IMG/VR virus record: IMGVR_UViG_3300024253_000006
DNA: 64,000 nt
Origin: a virus
Reading direction: 5' to 3' (one strand)
Positions within the stretch are counted from its first letter, which is position 1; each line of letters starts with the position of its first letter. The notes beneath the pieces are model-generated. The model was not told the origin of the DNA. It did not search any database and saw only the letters and a program-made list of their open reading frames with translations. The translations under genes and the position numbers were made by a program. Positions 3,171 through 60,370 of this stretch are shown here, one piece after another.

Positions 3171-3348
3171 GTGTATGGGATTGGTCCATGGCAGCCCTGG
3201 TACGAAACAGTGTGAGGAATGCACCAAATTAGTAATGACCACGAAAACCGAAAACAATGAAAAGACAAGGTGGATCGTAAAGCCCGTATATCCCTGCGCT
3301 GAGTTCAGTCGGCGCGGAAAATTCAGTAAAAGGAGAGTCGTCATATGA
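3163..3348 (+). CDS. Small Cys-containing hypothetical protein
   Basis: 61 aa, overlaps neighbours, CEEC motif. Confidence 0.5.
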   Translation: MLKCMGLVHGSPGTKQCEECTKLVMTTKTENNEKTRWIVKPVYPCAEFSRRGKFSKRRVVI

Positions 3349-4244
3349 AGAATGAGGCTGATTTCCTGGAGAATATGTTACAGGAACAGGCAGAAGAATT
3401 GGGCGCGACAGTATTATTCGACGATCATGGAGCTCCGATTCTGGCAATTGCTGTGCCACGTTTTAATCTTGAGGATTTTGACCCCATGCTTGGATCAGGG
3501 CCTCATCCTGCTTTCATCCGTGCCGATGGCAGTCTGCGTGATAAATTTTATGCTGCTTATGACGTAGCTTCGACAAACAGGGATTATGTTTTCAACATGC
3601 CAGGTTTGCCTGCCAGAGGCGATGTCACCTTTGATGAGGCTCGCGCGCTGTGCAGTGCCATGGGTCCCGGCTGGCACCTGACGAACGCCTGGGAGTGGTC
3701 CGCGATGGTGATGTGGATACTGATGCAAGGGAGAAATCCATTTAAATACAGCCTAATTGAATGGATTGATGGCATGAAGATGGTGGATGGCGCTCCCTAT
3801 TACCCTAATGTAAATGATATCGGTTTGCCTGAATCGGAATGGCCACTCCAGGGAATTTACATTGACGCCGACAGGGATGAACACGCCGTACTTTCAGACA
3901 CAGTAGAGCATTACTTGGGGCCGAAGGGCTCCGATGCCCACGATAATTATGGCTCAGTGGTTTGGTCTGATATGGGAATCCATCATAAAGGCTATGATGC
4001 CCTCCCTGAGACAACCAAGTTGCGTGTAATGCAAATAATGTTGGCACCGTCAAAAAGGCTGGCAGAAGAAACATCGGGAATATTTTATTTTCGTAACTAT
4101 GGCGAGCGTTTCCCGCTCCGCGGTGGCGACTGGAGCCATGGCGCGAATGCTGGTCTGGCTTATCTGGCTCTGAGTAATCGCCGCGCGAACTCGGACTACA
4201 ACATCGGGTTCCGTCCCGCTTTTGTTGAGGACTCTGGTGTCTGA
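3345..4244 (+). CDS. DGR target protein 1 (FGE-sulfatase/C-type-lectin fold, Mtd-like paralogue), remote
   Basis: PRFNLED..GPHPAF, GWHLTNAWEWSA, C-terminal RNYGERFPLRGGDW...IGFRPAF; contains VR1. Confidence 0.9.
   Translation: MKNEADFLENMLQEQAEELGATVLFDDHGAPILAIAVPRFNLEDFDPMLGSGPHPAFIRADGSLRDKFYAAYDVASTNRDYVFNMPGLPARGDVTFDEARALCSAMGPGWHLTNAWEWSAMVMWILMQGRNPFKYSLIEWIDGMKMVDGAPYYPNVNDIGLPESEWPLQGIYIDADRDEHAVLSDTVEHYLGPKGSDAHDNYGSVVWSDMGIHHKGYDALPETTKLRVMQIMLAPSKRLAEETSGIFYFRNYGERFPLRGGDWSHGANAGLAYLALSNRRANSDYNIGFRPAFVEDSGV
4106..4220 (+). repeat. DGR variable repeat VR1
   Basis: Versus TR 59033..59147: 9 mismatches at TR adenines, 4 elsewhere (all synonymous). Confidence 0.9.
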
Positions 4245-4288
4245 TTATCCAGAATCTGAAAAAGGGCTGCCCAAAAAGGAGCTGTAAC

Positions 4289-4597
4289 ATGATTATAGCA
4301 AGGAATAATATAGACGGGCAAGCGTCTTTAGCGAGCCTGCCCGCAGCATGGGAGCGGCGTTTTCCGCTATGCGAGAATCCACGGAGTATCCTTCGCCACG
4401 AAGCTGAGTACATATTTTCGAAAATCAAACCGAAAATCACTTGGGCGTGGACAGGATGTGAGTATCAGATTATTTGGATTGGAAACCCAAAAGCTACAAT
4501 CATTCCCTACCGGGCAGATCCCGCGACATTCAGGCCCGTCTCCTTCAATGATTATCTGCATTGGTATGGCTTGCAAATTAAAGAGGTAAAACGATGA
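4289..4597 (+). CDS. Hypothetical protein
   Basis: 102 aa, SD AAGGAG, ATGA-coupled to the next gene. Confidence 0.6.
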   Translation: MIIARNNIDGQASLASLPAAWERRFPLCENPRSILRHEAEYIFSKIKPKITWAWTGCEYQIIWIGNPKATIIPYRADPATFRPVSFNDYLHWYGLQIKEVKR

Positions 4598-5616
4598 GCG
4601 AGCCTATTCTAAAACTCGAAGGTGATGCCTTTGAGGCAATTGCCGATACCCGAGAATTGACCCACGAGCAATGGTTAGACCTGCGCCGAACCGGTCTTGG
4701 TGGGGCCGATTCTGGCGCAGTCATGAATATGAACCCCTACTCCAGCCGGTTCATGGTTGCGCTTGATAAATACGGCAAGATCCCACCCAAAGAGGAAACC
4801 GATGCCATGAGGCATGGCAAACGTATGGAGCCAATACTCCGGAGAGAGTTCGTCGATGTTTTTAAAGAGGCAACGGGATGTACCGTGGAGGTTTCAGGGT
4901 CTCCCTGGATGTACCGCTCGAAGCTGTATCCGTGGATGCTTGCTGACATCGATGGTGTTATAAAATTGCCTCCTGAAGGGTACACAACACCCGATGGGAT
5001 TCACCTCGAAGGCATTGGGGGGATGGAATGCAAAGCCGTTTCGTTTGGGAAAGAGTGGAAAGATGACAGCGTGCCCGACAACTACTATTGCCAAGACACA
5101 CACTATATGACCGTTCTCGGGTTCAAGTGGATCATGATGCCTGTCCTCATTATAAATAGGATCGAATTCCGCGTGGTACCGTTGAATTATGAATTTCAGG
5201 CAAAGCTGATTGAGACCGAGCGAGAGTTTTGGAACGATATCATCCTCAAAGGCGAAATCCCGTCACCTGACGGAGTGGATGATGAGGATACATATATCTC
5301 CATGCTGTACCCAGCCCAAACGGAGACTATCGCGCAGCTGCCCGCCGACCTGGAGCACTTGGGACACAGGTATTTGGAACTCATAGAGGCCGAAAACTCA
5401 ATAAAAGGAGAGAAAGAACAGATAAAATCAAAATACAAGCTTGCCATGGGTAATTCGAAGATTGGAATGACTGGAGTAATAGAGGCTGTTTGGAATCGGT
5501 ATCAGAAAAGACAATTCAATAAAGACGCATTTAACCGCTCATATCCCGGGGTCTATGAGACATTTTCCACGCTCGTTCCGGCGGATCGCTTCACAATCAA
5601 AAGGAGATCGGTATGA
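4594..5616 (+). CDS. YqaJ-like viral recombinase-associated exonuclease
   Basis: WLDLRRTGLGGADSGAVM, HGKRMEP, PWMLADIDG, ECK, YYCQDTHYM. Confidence 0.9.
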   Translation: MSEPILKLEGDAFEAIADTRELTHEQWLDLRRTGLGGADSGAVMNMNPYSSRFMVALDKYGKIPPKEETDAMRHGKRMEPILRREFVDVFKEATGCTVEVSGSPWMYRSKLYPWMLADIDGVIKLPPEGYTTPDGIHLEGIGGMECKAVSFGKEWKDDSVPDNYYCQDTHYMTVLGFKWIMMPVLIINRIEFRVVPLNYEFQAKLIETEREFWNDIILKGEIPSPDGVDDEDTYISMLYPAQTETIAQLPADLEHLGHRYLELIEAENSIKGEKEQIKSKYKLAMGNSKIGMTGVIEAVWNRYQKRQFNKDAFNRSYPGVYETFSTLVPADRFTIKRRSV

Positions 5617-6860
5617 AATTAATTGGATTGTCCATTAACGGACTGCGGAAAATCAGGGCCGCTGAATTGGATTTTGATGGACGGGCATTAGTGCAGATAA
5701 AAGGCCGGAATGGCGCTGGAAAGTCTACCATCATCGATGCAATTAAATATCTGCTAAGGGGGAGCAGGGAAATTCCTGCCGGCGTGGTAAGCCACGGCAT
5801 AGCTGACGAATCAGTCATTATCGGAAGAATCAATGACTATACCGTTCGGCGCGTTATCAAAGACGATGGGAAAAGCCTCCTGTCGATCGAGAAGGATGGG
5901 AATAAGATGGGCCGTCCACAGGAATTTCTCGACGCAATCAGCGGTCAATTTTTGGATCCTGAGTATTTTATGAATCTATCACCAGCAGAGAAGCGAGCAA
6001 TGGTTGTGAGGATGGCCGGCCTAGATTTTAGCGAGATCGATTCCCAAATTACTACTGCCGAACAGGACAGGCTGGTAAAAGGGCGGGCCCTAAAGGCTAT
6101 TGGAATACCGGAAGCCGTGGAAAGGGTTGATGCTGTTTCGCTTTCCGACCTCGTAAAAGAACGCAACAAAATTGAAGCCTACAATGCGACGCAACGTGAT
6201 TTACAAGCGGCTTATGGTGCTTTTGTTGGCAATCTAATACATAGGATTATCAAGGAATTTGACGGCGTTACCTCCATGGATGCCATAGGGCTCGCCCTTG
6301 GCCGCGGTATGGATATTTACGAAAGAGGCAAGCTGGGGACGCCGCCTATGGCGCAGCCTGAGAAGTCCTATGCCGAAATTGATGAGCGCATCGCGAACGC
6401 GGAAGCTTTGAACGAGCAAGCCAGACAGTACGAGGCGTACCTCGCGAAGGTTAAACAGAGGGAGAGCGCTGAGGAAGCCTACAATGCCGCACAGTCCACC
6501 GTAGAACATCTTCGGGGAGTGCGGGACGACATGATGAACACCGCTCATGTGCCGATCAAAGGGTTGAAAATCACAGAGACTGGACTGGAATACAAGGGTG
6601 CCTCCTGTGAAAACTGGTCAACATCGGAGAGCCTTAAAATATCCCTCATGCTTGCCGTCGCATACTCAGGGGATTTGAGGACCGTCTATATCAAACGTGG
6701 TGAAGCGTTTGACAGGAATTCCTTGGCATCCATAAAGGAATTTGCTGAAAAGCATGATGTCCAAATCATTATGGAAATTGTCGATGACAGCTATTCTGAC
6801 GACGAAGATGGGATAATTTGGCTCGAAGAAGGCCAAATCGTGAAAGCGAAAAAGGAATAA
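5613..6860 (+). CDS. SMC/Rad50-like AAA ATPase
   Basis: Walker A GRNGAGKST near the N-terminus, coiled coil, C-terminal WSTSESLK signature-like motif. Confidence 0.8.
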   Translation: MKLIGLSINGLRKIRAAELDFDGRALVQIKGRNGAGKSTIIDAIKYLLRGSREIPAGVVSHGIADESVIIGRINDYTVRRVIKDDGKSLLSIEKDGNKMGRPQEFLDAISGQFLDPEYFMNLSPAEKRAMVVRMAGLDFSEIDSQITTAEQDRLVKGRALKAIGIPEAVERVDAVSLSDLVKERNKIEAYNATQRDLQAAYGAFVGNLIHRIIKEFDGVTSMDAIGLALGRGMDIYERGKLGTPPMAQPEKSYAEIDERIANAEALNEQARQYEAYLAKVKQRESAEEAYNAAQSTVEHLRGVRDDMMNTAHVPIKGLKITETGLEYKGASCENWSTSESLKISLMLAVAYSGDLRTVYIKRGEAFDRNSLASIKEFAEKHDVQIIMEIVDDSYSDDEDGIIWLEEGQIVKAKKE

Positions 6861-6862
6861 CT

Positions 6863-7438
6863 ATGAAAGTCGCATGGATCGATGTTGAAACAACCGGACT
6901 CGATTGTACACGGCACGGGATTATTCAGGTCGCCTTCATTGTAGAAATCGACCACAAAATTATCACTAGAGCTGATTTTCGTATGAACCCCGTCGGGAAA
7001 GAGATAGATCCCGGAGCAATGGAGATACACGGTATTTCGTCTGACGAGCTGGAGGCATATCCTCCCTGTGCGTCCGTTAAAGCGAAAATTGAAAGCTTTT
7101 TGGGACAATTCGTCAACAAGTTTGATCGACAGGATAAACTTGTGCCCGCTGGTTACAATGTAGATTTTGATCTGGGATTTATGGAACACTTGTGGCTTGA
7201 TAATGGGGATAAATATTTTTATTCCTGGTTTGAGCGTGTTCCACTGGATGTCTATAGGGATCACAGATTGATGGAGTACGCCGGCCTCGTGCGCGTCCCC
7301 GCCAATAGAAAGCTTGAGACAATGGCTGAAATGTATGGAATTGCAATGCCGAACGCGCACGACGCTGCGGTGGATATCGACACTACATACAAGATTGCAG
7401 AGATCATGCTGAAAAAGATCAAAGGAGAAGCCGTATGA
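6863..7438 (+). CDS. DEDDh 3'-5' exonuclease (DnaQ-like)
   Basis: WIDVETTG, AGYNVDFD, AHDAAVD. Confidence 0.9.
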   Translation: MKVAWIDVETTGLDCTRHGIIQVAFIVEIDHKIITRADFRMNPVGKEIDPGAMEIHGISSDELEAYPPCASVKAKIESFLGQFVNKFDRQDKLVPAGYNVDFDLGFMEHLWLDNGDKYFYSWFERVPLDVYRDHRLMEYAGLVRVPANRKLETMAEMYGIAMPNAHDAAVDIDTTYKIAEIMLKKIKGEAV

Positions 7439-8445
7439 AAGCAAATGGGACAGATGCTGTTGTAGCAATCAATAAAACAGCCGAACCTCAGAGACCAAAA
7501 ACGTTGAAGCAATTCCTTCTGGATAACAAATCATCCTTTGAGGCCGCGCTGCCTAAAAACACTATCAACGTCGAACGGTTTATCACTGCGGCGGCGATGG
7601 AAATTACGAACAACCCAAAGCTCATGCAGTGCGACCATACCTCCATCATCTTATCTCTGGGTCAGGCGGCGCGTTATGGGCTTGAGACTGGTCCACTCTT
7701 GGGTCAAGCGTGGTTAATTCCGTACAATGAGAATAGGTATATCGATGGGAAGTGGCTGAAGCAGATGGTGTGTCACTTCCAGATCGGATACCGCGGCTTG
7801 ATTGTACTTGCTCGACGCTCGCAGACCATTAAAACAATCAGCGCGGAAATTGTCTACGAGAATGATTTTATCGAGGTTGAGCTGGGCCTGAAGCACTCTT
7901 TGACCCATAAGATAGACATCAGGAAAGAGCGGGGGGAACCTATCGCCTATTACTGTATTGTTGAGCTCGTGAACGGTGGAGTACAGTTTGGTATCATCTC
8001 AAAAGTAGATGCTGAAAAACACAGAGATAAATACAGTAAATCGTATGCGAAAAAGAAGGAAGGCGAAGAATCGGTATGGGACACAAACTTTGACGAGATG
8101 GCTCTGAAAACCATCGTCATTAAAGTTTTGAAGCTGTGCCCGCTCAGCATTGAAGCCCTAGAGGCCGTATCGAGGGCTGAGCGCGAGGACATGATAGATG
8201 TCACCAATGATGACTATACGATAGGAGTTAAACAGGAGCCTAAAAATACTACACCAAAACCTTCAGAACTACCAAAGAACTCTCCGACACCTCCCGAAAA
8301 TAATATCAACAAAGAGCCAAAGGAGGAGGACAATGAAATCATTCCAGGCGTCACAATAATAACAGAAAGGCCCGACGATCAGAATGACATAAATGATACT
8401 GACCCGGCACCGCAAGACGTGCCGGATGAATTGGATATATTCTGA
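7435..8445 (+). CDS. recT: RecT-family single-strand annealing protein
   Basis: AWLIPY, FQIGYRGLIVLARRS, VYEND, W..NFDEMALKTIV; in the same cluster as the YqaJ exonuclease. Confidence 0.9.
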   Translation: MKANGTDAVVAINKTAEPQRPKTLKQFLLDNKSSFEAALPKNTINVERFITAAAMEITNNPKLMQCDHTSIILSLGQAARYGLETGPLLGQAWLIPYNENRYIDGKWLKQMVCHFQIGYRGLIVLARRSQTIKTISAEIVYENDFIEVELGLKHSLTHKIDIRKERGEPIAYYCIVELVNGGVQFGIISKVDAEKHRDKYSKSYAKKKEGEESVWDTNFDEMALKTIVIKVLKLCPLSIEALEAVSRAEREDMIDVTNDDYTIGVKQEPKNTTPKPSELPKNSPTPPENNINKEPKEEDNEIIPGVTIITERPDDQNDINDTDPAPQDVPDELDIF

Positions 8446-9257
8446 TGAAAGCGACAGGGCCCTGCAAAACAGCGTGGATGCCGGAAAAGCATGTGGCGTG
8501 GATACGCCCCAACAAGGAAGATGAGCTGGCTTTCGTGGCTGTGTTCAACGCAATAGCGAAGCGGCATGAAAAGACTGGCACAGACGTTTTCCCTGTAATC
8601 ACCATCCACTTGCCTGAGCGAGAGCGAACCTACAAGCAAAATGATACGCTCTGGGCCTTGATCACTGTTATTTTCCAATCGATGAATGGGCGTAAGCCTA
8701 CGCAGACGGAGAAATACGATCTCTATCTGGATATCCTCGAAGAACACGCAGAAAGAATCCCTACTAGGTTTTCGGGTCGTCTGCGCCCCATCCATATTTC
8801 AGAAAGCGACACCGTGCATGCGGCACAGCTTATTCAGGCGTGTTTCGACATCATTGTTGAATACTGCGACCTAAATGTGGATCTACAATCGGACGTTCGA
8901 AGCCTGTTCTACAAGTGGCATGCGTGGCGCGGTGGCCTCGACAAGGATCCGCTCGACTACGACGAATCCGAAGAGATGAGTGAGAAGGAATGGCGAGAAA
9001 ATCACAAAGTATCCGACGCTTCCGGTATCGGGGGATACCTTGAGAAGGCTCATATTATCTCGCGTGGCGCCGCACCTGGGGCGATTGAATGCCCGTGGAA
9101 TTGGCTTGTACTGACGCATGAGGAACATCAATATCAACATCAATTTGGCTGGAAGGCATTCCTAGAGAAGTATCCACACTTGGCCGGGAGAGTTGAAAGA
9201 GCTCGTTTACTGGTAGGGAAAATGTCATCCGAATGTTCGGAGAGACAACATGCATGA
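8445..9257 (+). CDS. Phage protein with C-terminal HNH-like (DUF968-type) nuclease motif
   Basis: EKAHIISRGA...LVLTHEEHQYQHQFGWKAF; typical position after recombinases. Confidence 0.55.
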   Translation: MKATGPCKTAWMPEKHVAWIRPNKEDELAFVAVFNAIAKRHEKTGTDVFPVITIHLPERERTYKQNDTLWALITVIFQSMNGRKPTQTEKYDLYLDILEEHAERIPTRFSGRLRPIHISESDTVHAAQLIQACFDIIVEYCDLNVDLQSDVRSLFYKWHAWRGGLDKDPLDYDESEEMSEKEWRENHKVSDASGIGGYLEKAHIISRGAAPGAIECPWNWLVLTHEEHQYQHQFGWKAFLEKYPHLAGRVERARLLVGKMSSECSERQHA

Positions 9258-9426
9258 AAATTGTGTTGTGGAGGAGTGTGGTATGCATAGGATTAAATGG
9301 ATAAAGAGTAAGCTTGATAGATGGCTCACACGACATCCCGTAATGATGATTCTTGTGCAAATAGTTTTATCGGCCATATTTGTGTGGTTATTTTGCTTTC
9401 TGTTTTTCTCGACAACAAGGGGGTAG
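9250..9426 (+). CDS. Small membrane protein (58 aa, not in the ORF track)
   Basis: Manual translation gives the hydrophobic stretch VMMILVQIVLSAIFVWLFCFLFF; fills the gap between genes. Confidence 0.4.
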   Translation: MHENCVVEECGMHRIKWIKSKLDRWLTRHPVMMILVQIVLSAIFVWLFCFLFFSTTRG

Positions 9427-9429
9427 ATA

Positions 9430-10347
9430 ATGTACGGTTTATGGCTTCGACTTTATACGGATGTGGTAAATAGCCGCAAAATACAAACCTTGCCGGATTC
9501 AGCCTTCAAATTCTGGGTTAATTTATTGTGCTTGGTGAAAGAAAGTGGATCGGAAGGGCTGATACCATCGATAGATGATATTGCCTTCGGGATGAGAATG
9601 GATTCCGACAATGACAAGTTAAAGAAAAAGAATCAGCTCAGGATAAAAGAACACCTCGACACGCTCAAAAAGCATGAATTGATCGATACCTCTCCGGCGG
9701 GGGACATGATACATGACTGGCTCGACGCCCAACCTAAGTCTGACGATGATCCCACTAATGCCATCCGGCAAAAACGATACCGACAGAACCGTAACGCGTT
9801 ACGTAACGGAGATGGTAACGGCACTGATAACGGAGAGAGTAACGATAGTAACGCGTTACGTAACGAAAGCAGTAACGATACTGATAACGGAGAAGACTTA
9901 CCAACAAGCAATAGAGACGATGCGTTACGTAACGGAGACAGTAACGCGTTACGTAACGCGTCTAGAGAAGAGAAGAGAAGAGAAGAGAAAAGAAAAGAAG
10001 AGAAGAGTGGCGAATCCATCAAACTTGCTACCTTACTTTATTCACTTCACCGAGACCTTATTGATTCCAAGTACAACGTTTCCGAGGTAAGGCTTTCTTC
10101 TTGGGCTGATGAAATCGAAAAATTGCATAGGATAGATGGACGGGACTGGGGGGAGATTGAGAGCGTCGTTACTTGGGTGAAGCATGACAGCTTTTGGGCG
10201 TCAGTTATCCTATCTGGTAAGAAATTGCGCGAGAAGTATCCAACGCTCTTTACTCAGATGAAACGTAAACCATCGGCTCCACGTGGAAATGATGTACCGA
10301 AGGTGCTTAGTCGCAGCGAATCCCTTGGGGATATTAAGGAGATCTAA
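9430..10347 (+). CDS. Phage replication initiator (lambda O / replisome-organiser-like)
   Basis: WLRLYTD..KIQTL..FKFWVNLLCL N-domain, low-complexity centre containing iterons, C-terminal FWASVILSGKKLREKY; upstream of the DnaC-like gene. Confidence 0.85.
   Translation: MYGLWLRLYTDVVNSRKIQTLPDSAFKFWVNLLCLVKESGSEGLIPSIDDIAFGMRMDSDNDKLKKKNQLRIKEHLDTLKKHELIDTSPAGDMIHDWLDAQPKSDDDPTNAIRQKRYRQNRNALRNGDGNGTDNGESNDSNALRNESSNDTDNGEDLPTSNRDDALRNGDSNALRNASREEKRREEKRKEEKSGESIKLATLLYSLHRDLIDSKYNVSEVRLSSWADEIEKLHRIDGRDWGEIESVVTWVKHDSFWASVILSGKKLREKYPTLFTQMKRKPSAPRGNDVPKVLSRSESLGDIKEI
9791..10006. repeat. Putative replication origin: 4 palindromic iterons plus purine tract
   Basis: (GTAAC)GCGTTACGTAACG at 9791, 9848, 9922 (partial) and 9941, followed by an AGAGAAG-type tract at ~9963-10006. 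Confidence 0.75.
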
Positions 10348-11103
10348 ATGTTGGTGACATGTGAAAAACACAACATCCAATATGAAAGCGAAGAGAATGT
10401 AAGCGGGATTACGTTTTATAAGCAATGCCCGAAATGCTTTGAAGAATTCATGCAAAAGCAGGAAGCTGAAAATAGAAAATCTGAAGAAATGAAGCGAATA
10501 AATAATTTCAGGAAAATGAATATCGAGCCTGAATTTTATGAGGCTACACTTGATAATTTTAATGCAAACACGCCCGACCTGAAAAAGGCCGTAGAGGCAA
10601 TTAAAAAGCTACTAAGTGGAGAAATCCAGCAGATTATTATGGTTGGCAGGAATGGCACCGGCAAAACGCATCTAGCTGTCGCTGCAGTGAAAAAGCTGCA
10701 TGGCGCGATTTATTCGATGTACGAAATTATTACGAGAATCAGGGCAACCTATATGCCGCATGCCGAGGAGACCGAATTGGATGTTGTGGATGAGTTGGCG
10801 AGACTCCCATTACTAGCGATCGATGAGCTCGGCAGGACGGGCGGAAGCAACTCTGAAAATAATTGGCTGTCCTACATAATTGACAAGCGACACGTGCGTA
10901 ATCTACCGACCATTATCATCTCGAATAAGCATATTCTCAAAGATTGTCCGGTTGGGGGGTGTCGGGATTGTCTGGAGAATTATATCTCCGAAGATATCAT
11001 GTCACGGCTCATTCAGCGAGGACTTTTGTTGAGATTCAACGGCGAAGATTGGAGAAGGAGAGATGCAAAACAGGAGCGGAAAAGTGAAAAAGGCAGTACG
11101 TGA
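10348..11103 (+). CDS. DnaC/IstB-like ATPase (helicase loader)
   Basis: GRNGTGKTHLA, LLAIDELG, IIDKRH..LPTIIISN. Confidence 0.9.
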   Translation: MLVTCEKHNIQYESEENVSGITFYKQCPKCFEEFMQKQEAENRKSEEMKRINNFRKMNIEPEFYEATLDNFNANTPDLKKAVEAIKKLLSGEIQQIIMVGRNGTGKTHLAVAAVKKLHGAIYSMYEIITRIRATYMPHAEETELDVVDELARLPLLAIDELGRTGGSNSENNWLSYIIDKRHVRNLPTIIISNKHILKDCPVGGCRDCLENYISEDIMSRLIQRGLLLRFNGEDWRRRDAKQERKSEKGST

Positions 11104-11197
11104 ATTTTTAGCTGGAATGATCCTTGTGCCGTTTATTTTGTTTGTAATTTTATATGAATTGTTGATGATTCATAGATAACCATGAAAAGGAGAATAT

Positions 11198-11563
11198 ATG
11201 AATGAATTTAGCGAAGCTCAGATAAGGCAGGAATGTGCAGAGAGCGCAGAAGCGATATTGAGAACATCATTAAAAAAGCTGATTGGTAAAGACTTGAAAA
11301 GAATGCATGGGAATATTGTGGCTGATTTAATAATACAGCACGTAAAAGATGCAATTACTAGAAACAATATAAAATACAAAACACTTGAGTCAGAAGTGGA
11401 GCTAACTGCTGATGCAGAATATGGTTTTATTGCACGGTATAAGTACCTTACCGCAGATGGAGAAACCCCAGACAAAGCCATGCAGGAATTAGCACGGGTT
11501 ATACTGGACGCTTTTAGTACTGATGGAACAGCTGCCTCTACCGGCCCAGAAAATAACAAATAA
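11198..11563 (+). CDS. Hypothetical protein
   Basis: 121 aa, SD AAGGAG. Confidence 0.6.
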   Translation: MNEFSEAQIRQECAESAEAILRTSLKKLIGKDLKRMHGNIVADLIIQHVKDAITRNNIKYKTLESEVELTADAEYGFIARYKYLTADGETPDKAMQELARVILDAFSTDGTAASTGPENNK

Positions 11564-11589
11564 GGGCTGCATTATGGTTAGGAAAGCAT

Positions 11590-12504: not shown

Positions 12505-13178
12505 AAATGAAAGAACATCCGATAATCTTCAGTGCTCCAATGGTCCGCGCTATTCTTGGTGGCCGAAAGACACAAACAAGGCGGGTGATAAGGGCGCAGC
12601 CGAATGTCGGTCCCGGTGCCGAAGAAATAAATTGGCTTGAAAGCCTTTATGGTCAGCCAGGTGATAGGCTTTGGGTGCGCGAGGGATGGCGCATAGGGGC
12701 TTGGGACGAGGATACTGGCCGTGTCGCTGTCGACTATAGAGCTGATGGATATTGCCGTAGGGAATGGCTTGAGATTGCTAACGACGATAATGGCGAAATT
12801 TTTAATCGCCTGTGGATAGAAAGCACTGATGATGCAGAGAAGGCACTCGGGGTCCAAGAATTTTATCACTGGGAGCCGGGCAAATCTCCTTGCCGCTGGC
12901 GCCCGTCGATTTTCATGCCGCGCTGGGCGGCGCGTATTCTTCTTGAGGTTGCTTCTATAAGAGCTGAAAGACTCCAGGATATAAGCGCGTCTGACTGCCT
13001 TGCCGAGGGAATGGACGGATTGACTACATTGTTCTCCAATTCAGACGAGCCGTGTGATGACAGAGGTATATCCGTACATGAACAATTTTTTGAACTATGG
13101 GATTCTCTCAACGCCCGACGAGGCTATGATTGGCATTCAAGCCCACGGGTTTGTGTGATTGAGTTTAAAATAATTTAG
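12501..13178 (+). CDS. ASCH/PUA-like phage protein
   Basis: PIIFSAPMVRAILGGRKTQTRR, PGDRLWVRE, WRPSIFMPRWAARILLEV..ERLQDIS. Confidence 0.75.
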   Translation: MKMKEHPIIFSAPMVRAILGGRKTQTRRVIRAQPNVGPGAEEINWLESLYGQPGDRLWVREGWRIGAWDEDTGRVAVDYRADGYCRREWLEIANDDNGEIFNRLWIESTDDAEKALGVQEFYHWEPGKSPCRWRPSIFMPRWAARILLEVASIRAERLQDISASDCLAEGMDGLTTLFSNSDEPCDDRGISVHEQFFELWDSLNARRGYDWHSSPRVCVIEFKII

Positions 13179-13367
13179 ATAGAAGAAAAATATGCCAGAT
13201 TATTGAAGCTCTTTCGGCGAACGTTGGACAGGTAGAGTACGCCGAGCGGCGTGCTAAGGAGTTGTTTGATCGTTGGAATGATGCCACCGGGGTGTTTACG
13301 CCAGGGAGTGGCTACTATGAGGAGATGTGTGCCTGAAAGATACTGCAGCGGGCGGGGAGGCTCATTT

Positions 13368-14541: not shown

Positions 14542-14559
14542 TAACCAATCCCAAATAAA

Positions 14560-15320: not shown

Positions 15321-16027
15321 CGCACACGGAACTATGCCTGGCGACAGCCGAACACTTCCTCAAAGACGCGACGGTGGCCTTGTATGAATATCAATCGTAT
15401 GCCACTGGTGAATTTCCTGATGTTTTTGTGTTTAAGGCCGGGGAAAGCACGCTCTATGAGATCAAGATGAGCCATTCTGATTTTCTGGCTGATTCGCATA
15501 AAGATGCTCGCAAAAAGTGGAAACCTAAAGGATATTTAGATGTCAAACATTTTATAAGACAGCGATCATGTGGGGAAACTTGTCTAAGGTTTCGTAAGAT
15601 TATTACACCAGAATTATGTACACGATGCGGGGAATTCTGTGGGGAAACAAAAAAGTACGATTCAATTAAACATACTCAGGTCAATGCCATTCGTTGTACA
15701 TTTGATGGTGGCGCACGCCTGCGCTGGATACAAGAAAATCCTGAGCTTTATTTTATCGAAAAACCCCACTTAGGGATGAAAAGATATTTTGTATGTGAAA
15801 GCCGGATAATTATGCCGGAAGAGCTCCCTGCGGGCTGGGGACTCTTTTGGTATAGCAGCGGCAGATTCTATCTGAAACAAGAAAGCGGTCGCTTTCGAGC
15901 CAATCTCTACGAGGAACGAAACATTGTAACCCATGCCCTTCGGAGGTGGGCGAGCGGAGACAGAAGTAGAATTATGGTGAATACATATAAAACGGCGCCG
16001 GAAACGCCGGAAGGAGCAGGAGTATGA
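15317..16027 (+). CDS. MmcB-like PD-(D/E)xK nuclease-fold protein with Cys-rich insert
   Basis: EFPDV..YEIKMSHSDFLAD, RYFVC..PEELPAGWGL. Confidence 0.65.
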   Translation: MTHTELCLATAEHFLKDATVALYEYQSYATGEFPDVFVFKAGESTLYEIKMSHSDFLADSHKDARKKWKPKGYLDVKHFIRQRSCGETCLRFRKIITPELCTRCGEFCGETKKYDSIKHTQVNAIRCTFDGGARLRWIQENPELYFIEKPHLGMKRYFVCESRIIMPEELPAGWGLFWYSSGRFYLKQESGRFRANLYEERNIVTHALRRWASGDRSRIMVNTYKTAPETPEGAGV

Positions 16028-16884
16028 AGAAGGCTGTGGTTGATATGGTCGACGGTAGTGGTGCGAAGCAAAAAATGATTCGCATTCCGAAATTCAACTT
16101 GGAGGACGTGGATCCCGCTTTGGGATCTGGTCCGCATCCTGCATTCATCACGAAAAACGGAGTCAGGGACGCAATCTATCTCGGGGCGCACCAGGCGGCT
16201 GTCGTGAATGGCAAGGTAAGAGTCATTTCACAGGTGAAGAATACACAGAATGTCACCTTTGATGAGGCTCGCGCGCTGTGCAGTGCCATGGGTCCCGGCT
16301 GGCACCTGACGAACGCCTGGGAGTGGTCCGCGATGGTGATGTGGATACTGATGCAAGGGAAGAACCCCTTCTCCATCGCATGGTGGGAGTGGACCGACGG
16401 GCTCAAGATCGTCGATGGAAAGCTTTTCTTCCCAGAGAGCAACACTCTCGTGGCAGAAGCGGATTGGCCGGAACATGGTGTATTTTTCGATGTGGATAAC
16501 GAGGAACAGCCACTACTTGCCACGGAAGTGAAAAAGTATCAGGGACCTCTCGGCTCCAATGATTACATGGATTATGCATATCAGAGGTTGTGGGCTTCTC
16601 TCGGAACGACGGAAGGATATGACAACCTACCGGAAGCAACGAAGAAACTCATGATGCAGCTCTTGATCGCTCCCGTAGAAGGATACGCAAAGAAAATCGA
16701 TGCTCCTATATGGGTTCGTAATTATGGCGAGCGTTTTCCGCTCCGCGGTGGCCGCTGGACCTATGGCGCGAGTGCTGGCTTGGCATATCTGATTCTGGAT
16801 CTTCGCCGCGCGCACTCGAACTACTACATCGGGTTCCGTCCCGCTTTTGTTAATGACCATGTAGAGATTAGCTCGGTGGGCTGA
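16024..16884 (+). CDS. DGR target protein 2 (FGE-sulfatase/C-type-lectin fold), remote
   Basis: IPKFNLED..GPHPAF, GWHLTNAWEWSA, RNYGERFPLRGGRW...IGFRPAF; contains VR2. Confidence 0.9.
   Translation: MKKAVVDMVDGSGAKQKMIRIPKFNLEDVDPALGSGPHPAFITKNGVRDAIYLGAHQAAVVNGKVRVISQVKNTQNVTFDEARALCSAMGPGWHLTNAWEWSAMVMWILMQGKNPFSIAWWEWTDGLKIVDGKLFFPESNTLVAEADWPEHGVFFDVDNEEQPLLATEVKKYQGPLGSNDYMDYAYQRLWASLGTTEGYDNLPEATKKLMMQLLIAPVEGYAKKIDAPIWVRNYGERFPLRGGRWTYGASAGLAYLILDLRRAHSNYYIGFRPAFVNDHVEISSVG
16731..16845 (+). repeat. DGR variable repeat VR2
   Basis: Versus TR: 12 mismatches at TR adenines, 1 elsewhere (3' CCT/CCC). Confidence 0.95.
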
Positions 16885-16928
16885 TTATCTGGAGTCTGAG
16901 GTACGACTATTCCGAATAGGGTGAGGAT

Positions 16929-57120: not shown

Positions 57121-57474
57121 ATGAGGATACAGATTTTGGGTACGCCTGTCGCCGAATACACACTGGACGAGGCGACGAAGGTGCTGACGGTGGCGGGGCT
57201 CGACGTGAACCTTCCCGATTACGAGAGAGATACGCAGAACATCGTCACGATTTCCGCCGGAGAAGCCGGGCCGGAATTGGGCATTGAAGGAAAGAAAGGT
57301 TTCATTGCCGACATCGACATTCCTCCACGGCGATACGTGGACGAGGAAGGTTTAAATGAGGCTGGTGATCCTGTCACGAACCATATCCCTGTGCCGCTCG
57401 ATACCGGCAGGATAATTTTGAAACTGTGGCCCCTGCCTAATCAGGTGGCCGAAATCGAAGAGGAGGTGCAGTAA
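57121..57474 (+). CDS. Tail-fibre-associated protein
   Basis: Between fibre and DGR target; SD AAGGAGG. Confidence 0.6.
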   Translation: MRIQILGTPVAEYTLDEATKVLTVAGLDVNLPDYERDTQNIVTISAGEAGPELGIEGKKGFIADIDIPPRRYVDEEGLNEAGDPVTNHIPVPLDTGRIILKLWPLPNQVAEIEEEVQ

Positions 57475-58607
57475 TGCCCGCTACTTTCACGAAAGATAGT
57501 ATGAGCGCCGCCGTTGAAGCGGCCTCCGGTGGAAAGATCAAGATTCTGTATGACGATCTTGGCAATCCCAGCCATATGGTTCGCATACCGAAATTCAATC
57601 TCGAGGATATAAGCGCGGATCTTGGTACCGGCCCCCATCCTGCCTTCATCGTCAATGGCGTTGCTAAGTCGGAAATTTGGATCGGTGCTTATCAGGCCTC
57701 GGTAATCGATGGTCGTGCCTATTCGCTTCCCGGCCAAGATCCGAAAATTGCCATCGACTTCGATACCGCCAAGGCTGCCTGCGTCAACAAAGGCCAGGGC
57801 TGGCATATGATGACGGCCTGGGAGTGGGCGGCGATCGCGCTCTGGTGCCTCAAGAACAAGTTCCAGCCGCGCGGCAATACGAACTATGGCCGCTCGCATG
57901 CACTTACCTATGAAACGGGTACCCGTGTCGATGGTGGCACTCCTGGTGTGTCGTCTGGAACGCCTCGCATTCTCACCGGGTCCGGCCCGATCTCGTGGCG
58001 CCATGAGAATACCTACGCTGGCATCTCCGATCTCGTGGGCAATGTCTCCGAGTGGAACGATGGATTCAAGATCATCGATGGCAAGATGTATTTCCCGGAT
58101 GACAACAATTTCGCGCTCGCCGAGGCGTCCTGGCCTGCCCGTGAAGCTTATTTCGACGCAACGGTAGGCCCTGGCGACAGAACGGGTGCGGCTGATAGCG
58201 GTGATCCTGTACTTTCGAATGTCGTGCCGGCGAATTATACCGAGACCCCGACTCCTGCTGGTGGGGCCGATGTAGGAGATTTCGACTATGCTTACATGGC
58301 CGCAGAAAACGGCTGGAGAAGCATGACGTACAAGTCAACCTACGACTCCATGGAACTCGCGCTTCGCCAAAAGCTGGCTGCCCTTATGATCGCCCCCAAG
58401 GTGAGCAAAGACGGCGCTCTTATCTTCGCCACTTCCGGTGAAGAAGCGAAGGGCGGTGTCTATGTTCGCAACTACGGCGAGCGTTTCCCGATCCGCGGCG
58501 GCGTTTGGAGCGATGGCGCGATTGCAGGCGTGGCGTGCCTGAACCTGGCCAGCCGTCGTGCGTTCTCGTACAGCAATATCGGGTTCCGTCCCGCTTTTAT
58601 ATTGTAA
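57474..58607 (+). CDS. DGR-adjacent target protein 3, Mtd-like receptor-binding protein (FGE-sulfatase/CLec fold)
   Basis: AVEAASGG..IPKFNLED..GPHPAF, GWHMMTAWEW, PRGNT.YG, DLVGNVSEW, RNYGERFP.RGG...IGFRPAF. Confidence 0.88.
   Translation: MPATFTKDSMSAAVEAASGGKIKILYDDLGNPSHMVRIPKFNLEDISADLGTGPHPAFIVNGVAKSEIWIGAYQASVIDGRAYSLPGQDPKIAIDFDTAKAACVNKGQGWHMMTAWEWAAIALWCLKNKFQPRGNTNYGRSHALTYETGTRVDGGTPGVSSGTPRILTGSGPISWRHENTYAGISDLVGNVSEWNDGFKIIDGKMYFPDDNNFALAEASWPAREAYFDATVGPGDRTGAADSGDPVLSNVVPANYTETPTPAGGADVGDFDYAYMAAENGWRSMTYKSTYDSMELALRQKLAALMIAPKVSKDGALIFATSGEEAKGGVYVRNYGERFPIRGGVWSDGAIAGVACLNLASRRAFSYSNIGFRPAFIL
58481..58595 (+). repeat. DGR variable repeat VR3 (diverged)
   Basis: Versus TR: 14 mismatches at TR adenines and 14 at non-adenines. 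Confidence 0.8.
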
Positions 58608-58666
58608 TCTGGGTATCTGATTCTCTGGATTCTGATGTCTTGGAGTTCTTCTGATGGAGTTTTGCC

Positions 58667-59011
58667 TTGGAAGTTATGAAAATTGCCCAGAAATGGGAAG
58701 ATATGGCAATTTACTTGTACATCGCCATGAAGCAGTATCCGAAGACGGAACGGCATACGCTCGTGGCCGATACCACAAACGCCCTATGGAATATAGGAAC
58801 TTATATCACAAGGGCGAATGCGGTTCGGTCACCATCGGAGCGCCGCCATCTTATCGAGGATGCCGACATGGAACTTGCGAGGCTAAAAGTGCTCGTGCGA
58901 ATGGGCATGCTCTTAAAGTTTATGGACATGAAGAAATACGGAGCCCTTTCGGGTCAGATGGTAGAAGTTGGAAAAATGCTGGGCGGGTGGTTACGCTCGC
59001 CTGGCGTTTAG
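58667..59011 (+). CDS. avd: DGR accessory variability determinant
   Basis: 114-aa basic helical protein: YPKTER..L, ELARLK..VR, EVGKMLGGW; lies between target and TR. Confidence 0.9.
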   Translation: MEVMKIAQKWEDMAIYLYIAMKQYPKTERHTLVADTTNALWNIGTYITRANAVRSPSERRHLIEDADMELARLKVLVRMGMLLKFMDMKKYGALSGQMVEVGKMLGGWLRSPGV

Positions 59012-59032
59012 GGGCATGGCTGTAATCTTGTG

Positions 59033-59147
59033 GCGTTTTCCGCTCCGCGGTGGCAACTGGAACAATGGCGCGAATGCTGGCTTGGCATATCTGAATCTGA
59101 ATAATCGCCGCGCGAACTCGAACAACAACATCGGGTTCCGTCCTGCT
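59033..59147 (+). ncRNA. DGR template repeat (TR), followed by a structured spacer to ~59320
   Basis: 11 AAC/AAT codons (GGNWNNGANAGLAYLNLNNRRANSNNNIGFRPA), 25 adenines; downstream CCATGA..TCATGG and GGAGC..GCTCC hairpins. Confidence 0.95.
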
Positions 59148-59320
59148 CTCTCTCGATGCCGGAAGCCATGATCCTACGGGCTCATGGACAGTGCATAGAG
59201 AAAAAGGAGCCTTGCTCCTTCCCAGGGATATGTGAGGGAGAATATATATAGGCGCGGACGACCAGTAGAGACCATGCGGCCCGAACGCGGTCTGCGCTAT
59301 TTTTTATCGAGGCGGCAACC

Positions 59321-60370
59321 GTGAAGACATATAATAACCTTTTCGATATGGTAGTTGAGTTTGAAAATTTGTATAAAGCATATGATAAAGCCAAAAGAGG
59401 TAAACGATACCGTATTCAAGCGCTTCATTTCAAGAAAAATCTGGAGGAGAATCTAATAGAAATACAAAATGAGCTGATCTGGCATATGTATAAACCATTG
59501 TCATACAGGCAGTTTTGGGTGTACGATCCTAAAAAGAGGCTTATTTCTGCGCCTGCATTCCGCGATAGGGTAGTGCATCATGCTCTTATTCAGGTTATAG
59601 AACCCATTTTTGAAAAAAAATTCATACCAGATTCCTTTGCATGCAGAAAAGGCATGGGAACACATTCTGCGGTTGCCCGCACACAACATTTTGAAAGGGT
59701 TGTCTATCGAAATTATGGAGACTTTTATGTGCTGAAGCTGGATGTGCGGAAGTTTTTCCCTTCGGTAAACCATGATATCCTGAAAAGAGAATTTACGAGA
59801 ATAATATCAGATAAAAGGTTGCATGAGATTTACAGCACTATAATAGATAGTTTCGAGCCGAATGGGCGCGGGCTTCCAATTGGAGCATTGACAAGCCAAC
59901 TATCAGCAAATATGTATCTGAATCCATTGGACCATTACATAAAAGATATCTGTGGTGAACGGTATTATGTTCGCTATATGGACGACATGGTAATCATTCA
60001 TCCATCGAAGAACCACCTGAGATATCTATGGAAGATGATCGAAAGGTATCTCAATGAGTACCTTGATCTACAATTGAATCCGAAATCGAAAATCTTTCAT
60101 TGGACCCAGGGAATCGATTTCTGCGGATATAGAATTTGGCCTACTCATATCAAGCCAAGGAAAACAACATTGAAAAGGGCTCGAAGACGTCTCAAAAAAT
60201 ATTCAGAAATGTATCAAAACAATCCTGAAATTTTGGTAAAAGCTCGCCAGAGTATTATGTCGTTTCTTGGCTATGTAAAGCATTGCCAATGCTATAACAC
60301 GACAAGATCAACGTTAGATAGTATTGTTTTTAAAGCCTCGAATGTTGACTTTAGGGATAGGATGAAGTAG
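59321..60370 (+). CDS. DGR reverse transcriptase
   Basis: FRDRVVHHAL, SFACRKG.G.H, LPIGALTSQLSAN, YVRYMDD, GIDFCGY. Confidence 0.95.
   Translation: MKTYNNLFDMVVEFENLYKAYDKAKRGKRYRIQALHFKKNLEENLIEIQNELIWHMYKPLSYRQFWVYDPKKRLISAPAFRDRVVHHALIQVIEPIFEKKFIPDSFACRKGMGTHSAVARTQHFERVVYRNYGDFYVLKLDVRKFFPSVNHDILKREFTRIISDKRLHEIYSTIIDSFEPNGRGLPIGALTSQLSANMYLNPLDHYIKDICGERYYVRYMDDMVIIHPSKNHLRYLWKMIERYLNEYLDLQLNPKSKIFHWTQGIDFCGYRIWPTHIKPRKTTLKRARRRLKKYSEMYQNNPEILVKARQSIMSFLGYVKHCQCYNTTRSTLDSIVFKASNVDFRDRMK

What the first reader, a model, noticed from the sequence alone, without database searches (positions are those of the whole stretch)
3345..60370. One phage DGR with three targets, two of them remote genes in the non-structural region
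The single TR (59033-59147) aligns to three VRs: VR1 4106-4220, VR2 16731-16845 and VR3 58481-58595. VR2, about 42 kb from the RT, differs from the TR at 12 adenines and one non-adenine. VR1, about 55 kb away, differs at 9 adenines and 4 synonymous non-adenines. Both remote genes are coupled by ATGA overlaps into the early recombination/accessory operon, not the tail operon. Established knowledge: phage DGRs such as BPP-1 diversify an adjacent tail receptor-binding gene, and multi-target DGRs are known mainly from cellular genomes. Inference: this phage hypermutates ligand-binding surfaces of proteins expressed early or in the cytoplasm, possibly adaptable binders of host factors or defence proteins rather than receptor-binding proteins.
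Basis: partly seen in the sequence, partly recalled or inferred. Interest (0 to 1): 0.9.

Follow-up and report, generated by a model that had tools for sequence, protein, structure and literature searches.

The report
Three-target DGR in a spirochaete phage
A temperate phage of Rectinema-like spirochaetes uses one mutagenic retroelement (DGR) to rewrite the binding tip of a tail-module protein and of two shorter paralogues encoded among its early genes; the pattern is real, but second non-structural phage DGR targets are already published and their function is still unknown.

Summary
One avd-TR-RT cassette (58.7-60.4 kb) has a 115-nt TR that aligns without gaps to three VRs at the stated coordinates. 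Mismatches are strongly adenine-biased: VR2 12 A + 1 non-A, VR1 9 A + 4 synonymous non-A, VR3 14 A + 14 non-A.

Both remote genes are real. Independent assemblies of related phages carry VR1 or VR2 at the same sites.

New here: VR1 and VR2 belong to a distinct short-form clade of TaqVP-like C-type-lectin variable proteins.
- All seven short-form gene contexts examined lie in early, recombination or pre-terminase regions.
- All four long-form contexts lie after baseplate or tail-fibre genes and before avd.
- Short-form scaffolds are under purifying selection (dN/dS about 0.1), while the AAY-coded positions are hypervariable.
- Every target carries tandem TCTGR repeats just after its VR; the TR does not.
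- The tail-adjacent VR3 has drifted from the TR.

The novelty claim is overstated. Non-adjacent targets within prophages (Wu 2018), a non-structural second target in Quimbyvirus (Benler 2021) and VR2 of Roseburia phage Shimadzu are published. This scan has also noted at least 16 similar cases on other DNA.

The function (an intracellular adaptable binder versus an accessory virion adhesin) is unresolved.

Verdict: a new member of a known kind, of moderate interest.

The parts
3345..4244 (+). Short-form variable protein gene 1 (299 aa), a TaqVP-like C-type-lectin fold; fifth gene of the early rightward operon, coupled by ATGA to the upstream 61-aa ORF
   Evidence: phrog_2889 E 1.5e-51. AF2 model pLDDT 92.5. 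Best PDB match is TaqVP 5vf4, E 4e-24, TM 0.8. A homologue sits at the same site in the MAG prophage L005.
4106..4220 (+). VR1
   Evidence: 13 mismatches to the window TR (9 at A, 4 synonymous non-A). Only 8 A + 1 T against the TR allele of the MAG relative.
4233..4259 (+). Tandem TCTGR repeats just after VR1 and its IMH, overlapping the stop codon
3622..3732 (+). 111-nt tract identical to 16250-16360 in the VR2 gene (gene-conversion tract between the two short-form genes)
   Evidence: The background identity between the two genes is about 50%.
4594..8445 (+). Recombination module directly downstream of VR1: RecE/YqaJ-like exonuclease, SbcC-like ATPase, DnaQ-like exonuclease, RecT
16024..16884 (+). 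Short-form variable protein gene 2 (286 aa), coupled by ATGA to the upstream 236-aa ORF; it lies after the SLT/DUF4406 accessory genes and before the terminase
   Evidence: phrog_2889 E 3e-61. An 83%-identical homologue sits at the same site in L001.
16731..16845 (+). VR2, the best match to the present TR
   Evidence: 12 A mismatches and no non-A mismatch apart from the IMH position.
16880..16899 (+). TCTGR-repeat element after VR2
57474..58607 (+). Long-form variable protein gene (377 aa), a TaqVP homologue and the last gene of the baseplate/tail-fibre block
   Evidence: phmmer against 5vf4, E 1e-73 over the full length. phrog_2889 E 6.5e-124. Neighbouring genes.
58481..58595 (+). VR3, drifted from the TR
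   Evidence: 14 A + 14 non-A mismatches, 12 of the non-A synonymous. dS inside the VR is 0.46, against 0.07-0.15 for VR1 and VR2.
58608..58635 (+). TCTGR-repeat element after VR3
58676..59011 (+). avd (111 aa). The longer ORF 58654-59025 is in the wrong frame.
   Evidence: Pfam bAvd PF22296, 75.9 bits against a cutoff of 40.
59033..59147 (+). Template repeat (TR): 25 A, 11 AAY codons. Its 3' end (IMH*) differs from the VR IMH.
59146..59299 (+). Structured spacer RNA between the TR and the RT
   Evidence: Rfam RF02921 RT-14 RNA, 55.4 bits against a gathering score of 48.1. This stretch is more conserved against the MAG relative than avd is.
59321..60370 (+). DGR reverse transcriptase (349 aa)
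   Evidence: RVT_1 E 3e-28. phrog_1423 E 1.5e-137. IGALTSQ at residues 187-193 and YMDD at 219.

Best explanation
A temperate myovirus-like phage of Rectinema-type spirochaetes carries one DGR, made of avd, a TR, a structured spacer RNA and an RT. Its adenine-mutagenised cDNA is copied in trans into three co-oriented paralogous genes. Each target ends in the same VR, the same IMH and a run of tandem TCTGR repeats.

One target is the long, TaqVP-like protein at the end of the tail module. The other two belong to a separate, older short-form clade with a truncated insert 1'. In these phages that clade is kept in the early, recombination or pre-terminase part of the genome.

Shown: the repeat relationships, the adenine bias, the DGR parts, the conserved non-tail placement, purifying selection on the scaffolds, and hypervariability at the AAY-coded positions.

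Inferred: the short forms are soluble proteins made inside the infected cell from non-tail operons. They would serve as adaptable binders in phage-host conflict or host takeover, not as tail receptor-binding proteins. Each progeny genome would carry its own variant into the next infection.

Also inferred: in this phage the most recent retrohoming went to VR2, then VR1, while the tail VR3 has not been overwritten for a long time.
For: All DGR parts are present.
- The RT has IGxxxSQ and YMDD motifs.
- bAvd scores above its Pfam cutoff.
- The TR has 11 AAY codons.
- The spacer matches Rfam RT-14.
- The IMH is exact in the three VRs and altered in the TR.

The adenine bias has p = 1e-4 to 1e-8.

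Relatives carry the same sites.
- The MAG prophage has VR1 and VR3. Against its own TR, VR1 shows 14 A of 18 mismatches, with the 4 non-A at the 5' edge. VR3 shows 18 A of 22.
- The L001 phage has VR2.
- Window and relative VRs differ at 21-28% of positions, against 8.5-14% in the rest of the gene.

Selection.
- Scaffold dN/dS is 0.083 for VR1, 0.109 for VR2 and 0.083 for VR3.
- Inside the VR, dN/dS is 4.5 for VR1 and 1.8 for VR2, with dS far below the scaffold value. That is what repeated overwriting from a conserved TR would give.

Family structure.
- In a tree of 120 homologues, 31 short and 89 long forms are split by one branch (SH-aLRT 99).
- Short forms lie in non-tail regions in all seven contexts examined. 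Four are upstream of a YqaJ/ATPase/RNase T/RecT module: the window and MAG VR1 genes, L008/L009 and L011/L012. One is after SSB (L010). Two are before the terminase: the window and L001 VR2 genes.
- Long forms lie after baseplate or tail-fibre genes and before bAvd in all four contexts examined.
- AAY-coded positions have about 3 bits of entropy in both clades, against 0-0.5 bits at scaffold positions.
- Short-form pairs only 6-15% diverged differ at 8-11 of 11 such positions.

TCTGR triple repeats occur only directly after targets, in the window and in six relatives' loci, with 0.045 expected per 64 kb.

No signal peptide or lipobox is present.

Trans action on distant co-oriented targets bearing an IMH has been shown experimentally for BPP-1 (PMC12875486). 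Published parallels are Quimbyvirus (PMC8008677) and Shimadzu VR2.
Against: There are no expression, virion-proteome or within-population read data for this phage.
- The runs found held only 5-7% of the sampled words.
- What could be laid were consensus contigs of the relative's own sample.

The short and long forms share fold, VR and TR, so they sample the same binding-site space. That would also fit a shared class of cell-surface ligands.

The long form has no obvious tail-anchoring domain either, so its absence from the short forms says little.

VR2 lies only three genes before the probable small terminase, in an unbroken + strand array, so it may be transcribed late.

Promoter and terminator scans were at chance level.

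The three non-A mismatches of VR1 fit the relative's TR allele. VR1 may therefore have arrived by recombination, not by recent homing in this genome.
Confidence: 0.5

Rival explanations
1. The short forms are virion-associated accessory adhesins or alternative receptor-binding tips that happen to be encoded outside the tail module. The DGR then diversifies three host-attachment proteins.
For: - They share fold, VR and template with the tail-module paralogue.
- phrog_5302 'tail protein' hits the C-terminal part of all three.
- BFVD structural matches are mostly C-terminal domains of proteins named tail collar fibre.
- VR2 lies close to the packaging genes.
- VR1 keeps the N-terminal helix that the long form has.
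Against: - None of the seven short-form contexts is in a tail module, while all four long-form contexts are. The split is old and clean.
- No conserved partner gene accompanies the short forms, whereas every long form follows a small conserved ORF of 106-150 aa.
- VR2 lacks the N-terminal helix.
- In Shimadzu, VR2 alleles were under weaker selection than the tail VR1 during infection.
Confidence: 0.3
2. The remote genes are passive passengers. They would be duplicated paralogues that still carry a VR and IMH, and so get overwritten without serving any function of their own.
For: - Presence varies among relatives. The MAG prophage lacks VR2 and the L001/L014 phage lacks VR1.
- A 111-nt conversion tract shows ectopic exchange between the two genes.
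Against: - Scaffold dN/dS is 0.08-0.11, the same as for the tail paralogue.
- The short forms are a deep clade with intact ORFs, conserved placement and translational coupling across phages only about 38% identical.
- The cis element after the VR is conserved.
Confidence: 0.08
3. The similarity of VR1 and VR2 to the TR reflects ordinary paralogy or an assembly chimera, not retrohoming.
For: A 12,755-bp contig (L018) joins the N-terminal part of VR2 to the C-terminal part of VR1, which shows that assemblers or recombination can cross between these repeats.
Against: - Outside the VR the short and long genes are about 50% identical at the nucleotide level. The 115-nt VRs are about 89% identical to the TR, with differences almost only at A.
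- dS inside VR1 and VR2 is far below the scaffold dS.
- Full-length VR1 and VR2 genes occur at the same sites in independent assemblies.
Confidence: 0.02

Closest known systems
Quimbyvirus ('Quimbyviridae') DGR of Bacteroides phages (Benler et al. 2021, Microbiome 9:78, PMC8008677)
   Same: One phage DGR with one target after the tail-fibre genes and a second, distal C-type-lectin target judged non-structural. Adenine-specific variation is seen among near-identical genomes, and the function of the second target is unknown.
   Different: Here there are two distal targets, on the same strand as the TR. They lie in the early/recombination operon and before the terminase, not in a defence island on the opposite strand. 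They form their own short-form clade of TaqVP-like proteins. The host is a spirochaete from non-gut habitats. The RT is a single ORF.
Roseburia phage Shimadzu DGR, VR2 in orf43 (Cornuault et al., bioRxiv 10.1101/575076)
   Same: A temperate phage with VR1 in a tail gene next to the RT and VR2 in a remote ORF of unknown function.
   Different: In Shimadzu both VRs were shown active by read variation. No such data exist here. The host phylum and the target family are different.
Non-adjacent targets of phage-associated DGRs in the survey of Wu et al. 2018 (NAR 46:11, PMC5758913)
   Same: Targets within about 50 kb of the RT, that is, within the same prophage. They are assigned by A-to-N differences from the TR.
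   Different: The survey did not analyse where in the phage these targets lie or what they are. This report places them in early operons and shows a dedicated clade.
TaqVP, variable protein of the Thermus aquaticus prophage DGR (PDB 5VF4; PMC6328139)
   Same: The long form is a full-length sequence homologue (E 1e-73). The short-form model superposes at TM about 0.8. Both have a C-terminal VR on a C-type-lectin fold with FGE-like inserts.
   Different: The short forms lack about 55 residues that fall within TaqVP insert 1', the insert reported to stabilise the VR. The genomic context of TaqVP is the canonical target-avd-TR-RT order.
Bordetella phage BPP-1 DGR (mtd-avd-TR-brt)
   Same: avd-TR-RT cassette, AAY-rich TR, IMH/IMH* asymmetry, structured spacer, and a C-terminal VR on a C-type-lectin fold. 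Trans action on separate targets has been shown experimentally (PMC12875486).
   Different: BPP-1 has a single adjacent tail-fibre target followed by a stem-loop. Here there are three targets, no convincing stem-loop, and tandem TCTGR repeats in that position.
Treponema denticola DGR with up to seven remote targets (PMC4891356; TvpA, PDB 2Y3C)
   Same: A spirochaete host lineage, FGE-type C-type-lectin variable proteins, and one TR serving several distant genes.
   Different: The T. denticola element is chromosomal with no phage association, and its targets are lipoproteins. Here the element and all targets lie inside one phage, and the targets have no lipobox.

Membership tests
Diversity-generating retroelement (DGR) | Reverse transcriptase of the DGR clade, with [I/L/V]GxxxSQ in place of the group II intron QGxxxSP motif, plus YxDD | tested here: met
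   IGALTSQ at residues 187-193 and YMDD at 219. RVT_1 E 3e-28. phrog_1423 E 1.5e-137.
Diversity-generating retroelement (DGR) | Accessory protein Avd (or HRDC) next to the TR | tested here: met
   bAvd PF22296, 75.9 bits against a cutoff of 40, for 58676-59011.
Diversity-generating retroelement (DGR) | A TR/VR pair that differs mainly at TR adenines, with AAY codons in the TR | tested here: met
   VR2 has 12 A of 13 mismatches, VR1 9 of 13, VR3 14 of 28. Fisher p = 1e-8 to 1e-4. The TR has 11 AAY codons.
Diversity-generating retroelement (DGR) | An IMH at the 3' end of each VR that differs from IMH* in the TR | tested here: met
   The 21-nt end is exact in the three VRs and has 3 mismatches in the TR. 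In the MAG relative, the TR differs from the VRs only downstream of the shared core.
Diversity-generating retroelement (DGR) | Structured spacer RNA between TR and RT | tested here: met
   Rfam RT-14 RNA above its gathering score at 59146-59299. Its role in priming is inferred from BPP-1.
Diversity-generating retroelement (DGR) | Ongoing mutagenic retrohoming, seen as within-population variation at VR adenine sites | not testable with these tools
   No run held more than 7% of the sampled words, and only consensus contigs could be laid. The indirect evidence is between-relative variation at AAY positions.
Diversity-generating retroelement (DGR) | Stem-loop or cruciform after the IMH (a BPP-1-type enhancer, not universal) | tested here: not met
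   No fold better than shuffled sequence (z -0.2 to -1.5). Tandem TCTGR repeats occupy this position. Wu 2018 state that most DGRs lack such a hairpin.
TaqVP-like C-type-lectin (FGE-type) DGR variable proteins | C-type-lectin/FGE fold with a C-terminal VR and detectable homology to TaqVP | tested here: met
   Long form: phmmer E 1e-73 to 5vf4. Short form: AF2 pLDDT 92.5 and Foldseek E 4e-24, TM 0.8 to 5vf4.
TaqVP-like C-type-lectin (FGE-type) DGR variable proteins | Complete insert 1' (TaqVP residues 129-217) | tested here: not met
   This applies to the short forms only. About 55 residues are absent, corresponding to VR3 residues about 131-192. The long form has them.
Phage DGR with a tail-module target plus a distal non-structural target (Quimbyvirus/Shimadzu type) | One TR serving a target beside the tail genes and at least one target outside the structural module of the same phage | tested here: met
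   Gene map. VR1 lies upstream of the RecE/RecT module, VR2 upstream of the terminase, and VR3 after the tail-fibre genes.
Phage DGR with a tail-module target plus a distal non-structural target (Quimbyvirus/Shimadzu type) | The distal target is absent from virions and made as a non-structural protein | not testable with these tools
   Only position, synteny and the lack of export signals are available.

The most novel reading that the evidence does not exclude
The short-form TaqVP-like proteins are a dedicated class of DGR-diversified intracellular early proteins. On this reading the phage carries an antibody-like library of binders against variable host defence or takeover targets, encoded in the Gam-like position ahead of the RecE/RecT module. 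In this lineage the DGR is now maintained mainly for them and not for the tail protein, and the tandem TCTGR repeats after each VR are the signal that marks a gene as a retrohoming recipient.
Probability: 0.2. Interest if true: 0.8.

Novelty: new member of a known kind. Interest (0 to 1): 0.45.

Why it matters
What the non-structural targets of phage DGRs do is an open question, raised by Quimbyvirus and Shimadzu. This phage group adds a clean comparative case.
- The same template serves a tail-module protein and a separately evolving short paralogue.
- That paralogue is held in the early/recombination region across diverged spirochaete phages, outside the gut.
- It is under purifying selection, and it is gained or lost as a cassette among close relatives.

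This argues that such targets have their own function, and it gives a defined protein family and a candidate cis signal (the TCTGR repeats) to test. It does not by itself show what that function is.

Tried and rejected
- Megablast of the cassette against 50,697 phage records: no match.
- No whole genome is held for the window, and the MAG record could not be searched by handle.
- Scans of viral contigs with both short-form proteins, and of metagenome contigs with VR2, found no relatives.
- Sequencing-run searches found only holders of 5-7% of the words. Laying four runs recovered only consensus contigs of the MAG relative's own sample, so within-population variation could not be tested.
- Complex prediction of the VR1 protein with the 117-aa ORF that precedes the long form gave no answer (score 0.01). 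This is not evidence either way.
- Promoter and terminator scans were at chance level.
- Folding the DNA downstream of each VR gave no stem-loop better than shuffles.
- PADLOC gave no hit for the three targets or their neighbours. Pfam and PHROGs gave nothing for most small early ORFs.
- The ORF 58654-59025, first taken as avd, is in the wrong frame. The real avd is 58676-59011.

Full report
**Observation**

The 115-nt stretch 59033-59147 lies between a bAvd gene (58676-59011; PF22296, 75.9 bits) and a reverse transcriptase (59321-60370; RVT_1). The RT carries the DGR signature IGALTSQ and YMDD. The stretch aligns without gaps to 4106-4220, 16731-16845 and 58481-58595.

| VR | Mismatches to TR | At A | At non-A |
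|---|---|---|---|
| VR2 | 13 | 12 | 1 |
| VR1 | 13 | 9 | 4, all synonymous |
| VR3 | 28 | 14 | 14, of which 12 synonymous |

- The single non-A difference of VR2 is shared by all three VRs and lies in the IMH/IMH* end.
- The TR has 25 adenines, 22 of them in 11 AAY codons. The adenine bias has Fisher p between 1e-4 and 1e-8.
- A 21-nt IMH-like end is exact in the three VRs and altered in the TR.
- The TR-RT spacer matches Rfam RT-14 RNA above its gathering score.
- The ATGA overlaps at both remote genes are there.

**Setting**

PHROG and Pfam scans give a nearly all-plus-strand temperate myovirus-like genome, in this order:
- a divergent switch region (minus-strand ORFs at 775-1859);
- an early operon from 2137;
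- the VR1 gene as its fifth ORF;
- RecE/YqaJ-like exonuclease, SbcC-like ATPase, DnaQ-like exonuclease and RecT;
- a replisome organiser and DnaC-like loader;
- accessory genes (SLT, DUF4406);
- the VR2 gene;
- three small ORFs, then terminase, portal, a 2065-aa polyvalent protein and a large helicase;
- protease, major capsid, sheath, baseplate and tail fibre;
- the VR3 gene, then avd-TR-RT, a holin-like gene and an endolysin.

No genome is held for the window. It comes from a 67.5-kb metagenome contig. A relative about 90% identical is integrated next to an integrase in a Rectinema sp. MAG of the Spirochaetota.

**Are the remote copies real targets?**

Independent assemblies say yes.
- The MAG prophage has a VR1 homologue at the same site and a VR3-avd-TR-RT cassette. 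Against its own TR, its VR1 has 14 A of 18 mismatches, with the four non-A at the 5' edge. Its VR3 has 18 A of 22.
- A 57-kb Logan contig has a VR2 homologue (83% aa identity) at the same site before the terminase.
- Between the window and these relatives, the VRs differ at 21-28% of positions, against 8.5-14% for the rest of each gene.
- Scaffold dN/dS is 0.083 (VR1), 0.109 (VR2) and 0.083 (VR3).
- Inside VR1 and VR2, dN/dS is 4.5 and 1.8, with dS (0.07, 0.15) far below the scaffold dS (0.37, 0.61). That is what repeated overwriting from a conserved template would produce.

Ordinary paralogy cannot explain this. Outside the VR the short and long genes are only about 50% identical in DNA.

**Recency of homing**

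- VR2 matches the present TR at every non-adenine position.
- The three non-A mismatches of VR1 are exactly the bases of the MAG relative's TR allele, leaving 8 A + 1 T against that TR. VR1 was therefore last written from an older or foreign TR allele, or it arrived by recombination.
- VR3 has 13 non-A differences apart from the IMH position, with dS inside the VR (0.46) close to the scaffold value. It has not been overwritten for a long time, although its IMH and downstream element are intact.
- In the MAG relative, VR3 is in step with its TR.

This agrees with a separate first-reader note on the drift of VR3.

**A distinct short-form clade**

A search with the VR2 protein found 242 relatives.
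- In a maximum-likelihood tree of 120 of them, 31 short forms are separated from 89 long forms by a single branch with SH-aLRT 99. The short forms lack about 55 residues.
- The long form is a full-length homologue of TaqVP, the Thermus aquaticus prophage variable protein (E 1e-73).
- The short-form AF2 model (pLDDT 92.5) matches TaqVP at TM about 0.8.
- The missing segment lies within TaqVP insert 1' (PMC6328139). The short forms therefore keep the core fold. This corrects another first-reader note, which said the core is missing.

Context is strikingly consistent.

| Form | Contexts examined | Position |
|---|---|---|
| Short | 7 of 7 | Non-tail regions |
| Long | 4 of 4 | After baseplate or tail-fibre genes and before bAvd |

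- Short forms upstream of a YqaJ/ATPase/RNase T/RecT module: window and MAG VR1, L008/L009, L011/L012.
- Short form after SSB and downstream of a CI-like HTH gene: L010.
- Short forms before the terminase: window and L001 VR2.
- In both clades the 11 AAY-coded positions have about 3 bits of entropy, against 0-0.5 bits for the scaffold positions between them.
- Short-form pairs only 6-15% diverged differ at 8-11 of these 11 positions.
- Neither form has a signal peptide or lipobox.
- Presence is polymorphic. The MAG prophage lacks VR2 and the L001/L014 phage lacks VR1.

**Cis element**

No stem-loop better than shuffled sequence follows the VRs. Every target is instead followed, at or just past its stop codon, by three to four TCTGR units spaced 7-8 nt apart.
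- This holds for the short and long forms in the window and in L001, L005, L010, L011, L015 and L016.
- In each of these loci they are the only such hits, with 0.045 expected per 64 kb.
- They are absent after the TR.
- L008 has a GC-rich hairpin instead.

This is a candidate recipient signal. It was also the subject of a separate first-reader note.

**Mechanism**

Established knowledge from BPP-1:
- the RT-Avd complex makes adenine-mutagenised cDNA from the TR RNA, primed from the spacer;
- the cDNA replaces the VR of a gene that carries an IMH;
- this works in trans on plasmid or chromosomal targets and prefers targets co-directional with replication (PMC12875486).

All three targets here are co-oriented with the TR. 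On the circular phage map, VR1 is only about 11 kb beyond the RT. Nothing about the distances is mechanistically unusual.

**Function**

This is inference. Several points favour a protein made inside the cell from non-tail operons, with its own function:
- the conserved early placement;
- translational coupling;
- purifying selection;
- separate evolution from the tail paralogue;
- the lack of export signals.

An adaptable binder in phage-host conflict is the most economical guess, by analogy with the Gam/Abc position ahead of phage recombination genes and with the Quimbyvirus defence-island target.

The rival, an accessory virion adhesin encoded outside the tail module, is not excluded. The fold, VR and template are shared. 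The long form lacks an anchoring domain too. VR2 sits near the packaging genes. A complex prediction of VR1 with the small ORF that precedes the long form gave no answer.

**Comparison with what is known**

- Wu et al. 2018 already report many phage-associated DGRs with non-adjacent targets within the same prophage.
- Benler et al. 2021 describe a Quimbyvirus DGR with one tail-module and one distal non-structural target.
- Shimadzu has an active VR2 in an ORF of unknown function.
- This scan's own notes list at least 16 similar cases in other genomes.

The present case is therefore a new member of a known kind. It is distinguished by two early targets, a dedicated short-form TaqVP-like clade, a spirochaete host from non-gut habitats, a drifted tail VR, and the TCTGR repeats. 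Interest is moderate.

**Seen in passing**

- The two short-form genes share a 111-nt identical tract in a background of about 50% identity.
- A 12,755-bp JGI contig is a circular path of 12,628 bp plus a 127-bp terminal overlap. It joins window 8022-16364 to 3622-8148 through that tract.
- Because the repeat is shorter than the overlap length, reads may really span the chimeric junction. That would mean recombinant circles or tandem duplications exist in the population.

Noticed in passing
window 3622-3732 and 16250-16360: A 111-nt tract is 100% identical between the VR1 and VR2 genes, whose background identity is about 50%. It is 94.6% identical to the MAG VR1 gene and 88% to the L001 VR2 gene. 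This suggests recent gene conversion, probably from VR1 to VR2, independent of the TR.
   Followed up: yes
L018 (JGI contig of 12,755 bp) against window 3622-16364: This contig is a circular path: 12,628 bp plus a 127-bp terminal overlap. It joins window 8022-16364 to 3622-8148 through the 111-nt tract and encodes a chimera of the VR2 N-terminus and the VR1 C-terminus (P0123). It could be an excised circle, a tandem duplication or an assembly cycle. The repeat is shorter than the overlap, which hints at real junction reads.
   Followed up: partly
window 4233-4259, 16880-16899, 58608-58635; also L001, L005, L010, L011, L015, L016: Three to four tandem TCTGR units with a 7-8 nt period follow the stop codon of every DGR target, short or long form, even in phages only about 38% identical in protein. 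They are absent after the TR. In L008 a GC-rich hairpin takes their place. They are a candidate recipient signal in place of the BPP-1 stem-loop.
   Followed up: partly
window 58481-58595: The tail-adjacent VR3 has 14 non-adenine mismatches to the TR, 12 of them synonymous, and scaffold-like dS. Its homologue in the MAG relative is in step with that phage's TR. A Logan contig from another run (L017) is 100% identical over 7.1 kb, VR3 included.
   Followed up: yes
window 58654-59025 against 58676-59011: The longest ATG ORF between VR3 and the TR is in the wrong frame and has no family hit. The real avd is the 111-aa ORF 58676-59011.
   Followed up: yes
L013 (MAG prophage) and L014 (Logan phage): Close relatives differ in target number. 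The MAG prophage has VR1 and VR3 but no VR2. The L001/L014 phage has VR2 but no VR1 at the RecE site. The short-form genes behave as gained or lost cassettes between conserved neighbours.
   Followed up: yes
window 23866-30063: A 2065-aa polyvalent protein lies in the head module, with PHROG hits to DarB-like antirestriction and minor head proteins. The relative's homologue carries LPD3, ART-PolyVal, InPase, DUF5661 and DUF6582 Pfam hits. It is followed by a 1633-aa helicase-like protein.
   Followed up: no
window 59146-59299: The TR-RT spacer matches Rfam RT-14 RNA (RF02921). Against the MAG relative it is better conserved than the avd coding sequence.
   Followed up: partly
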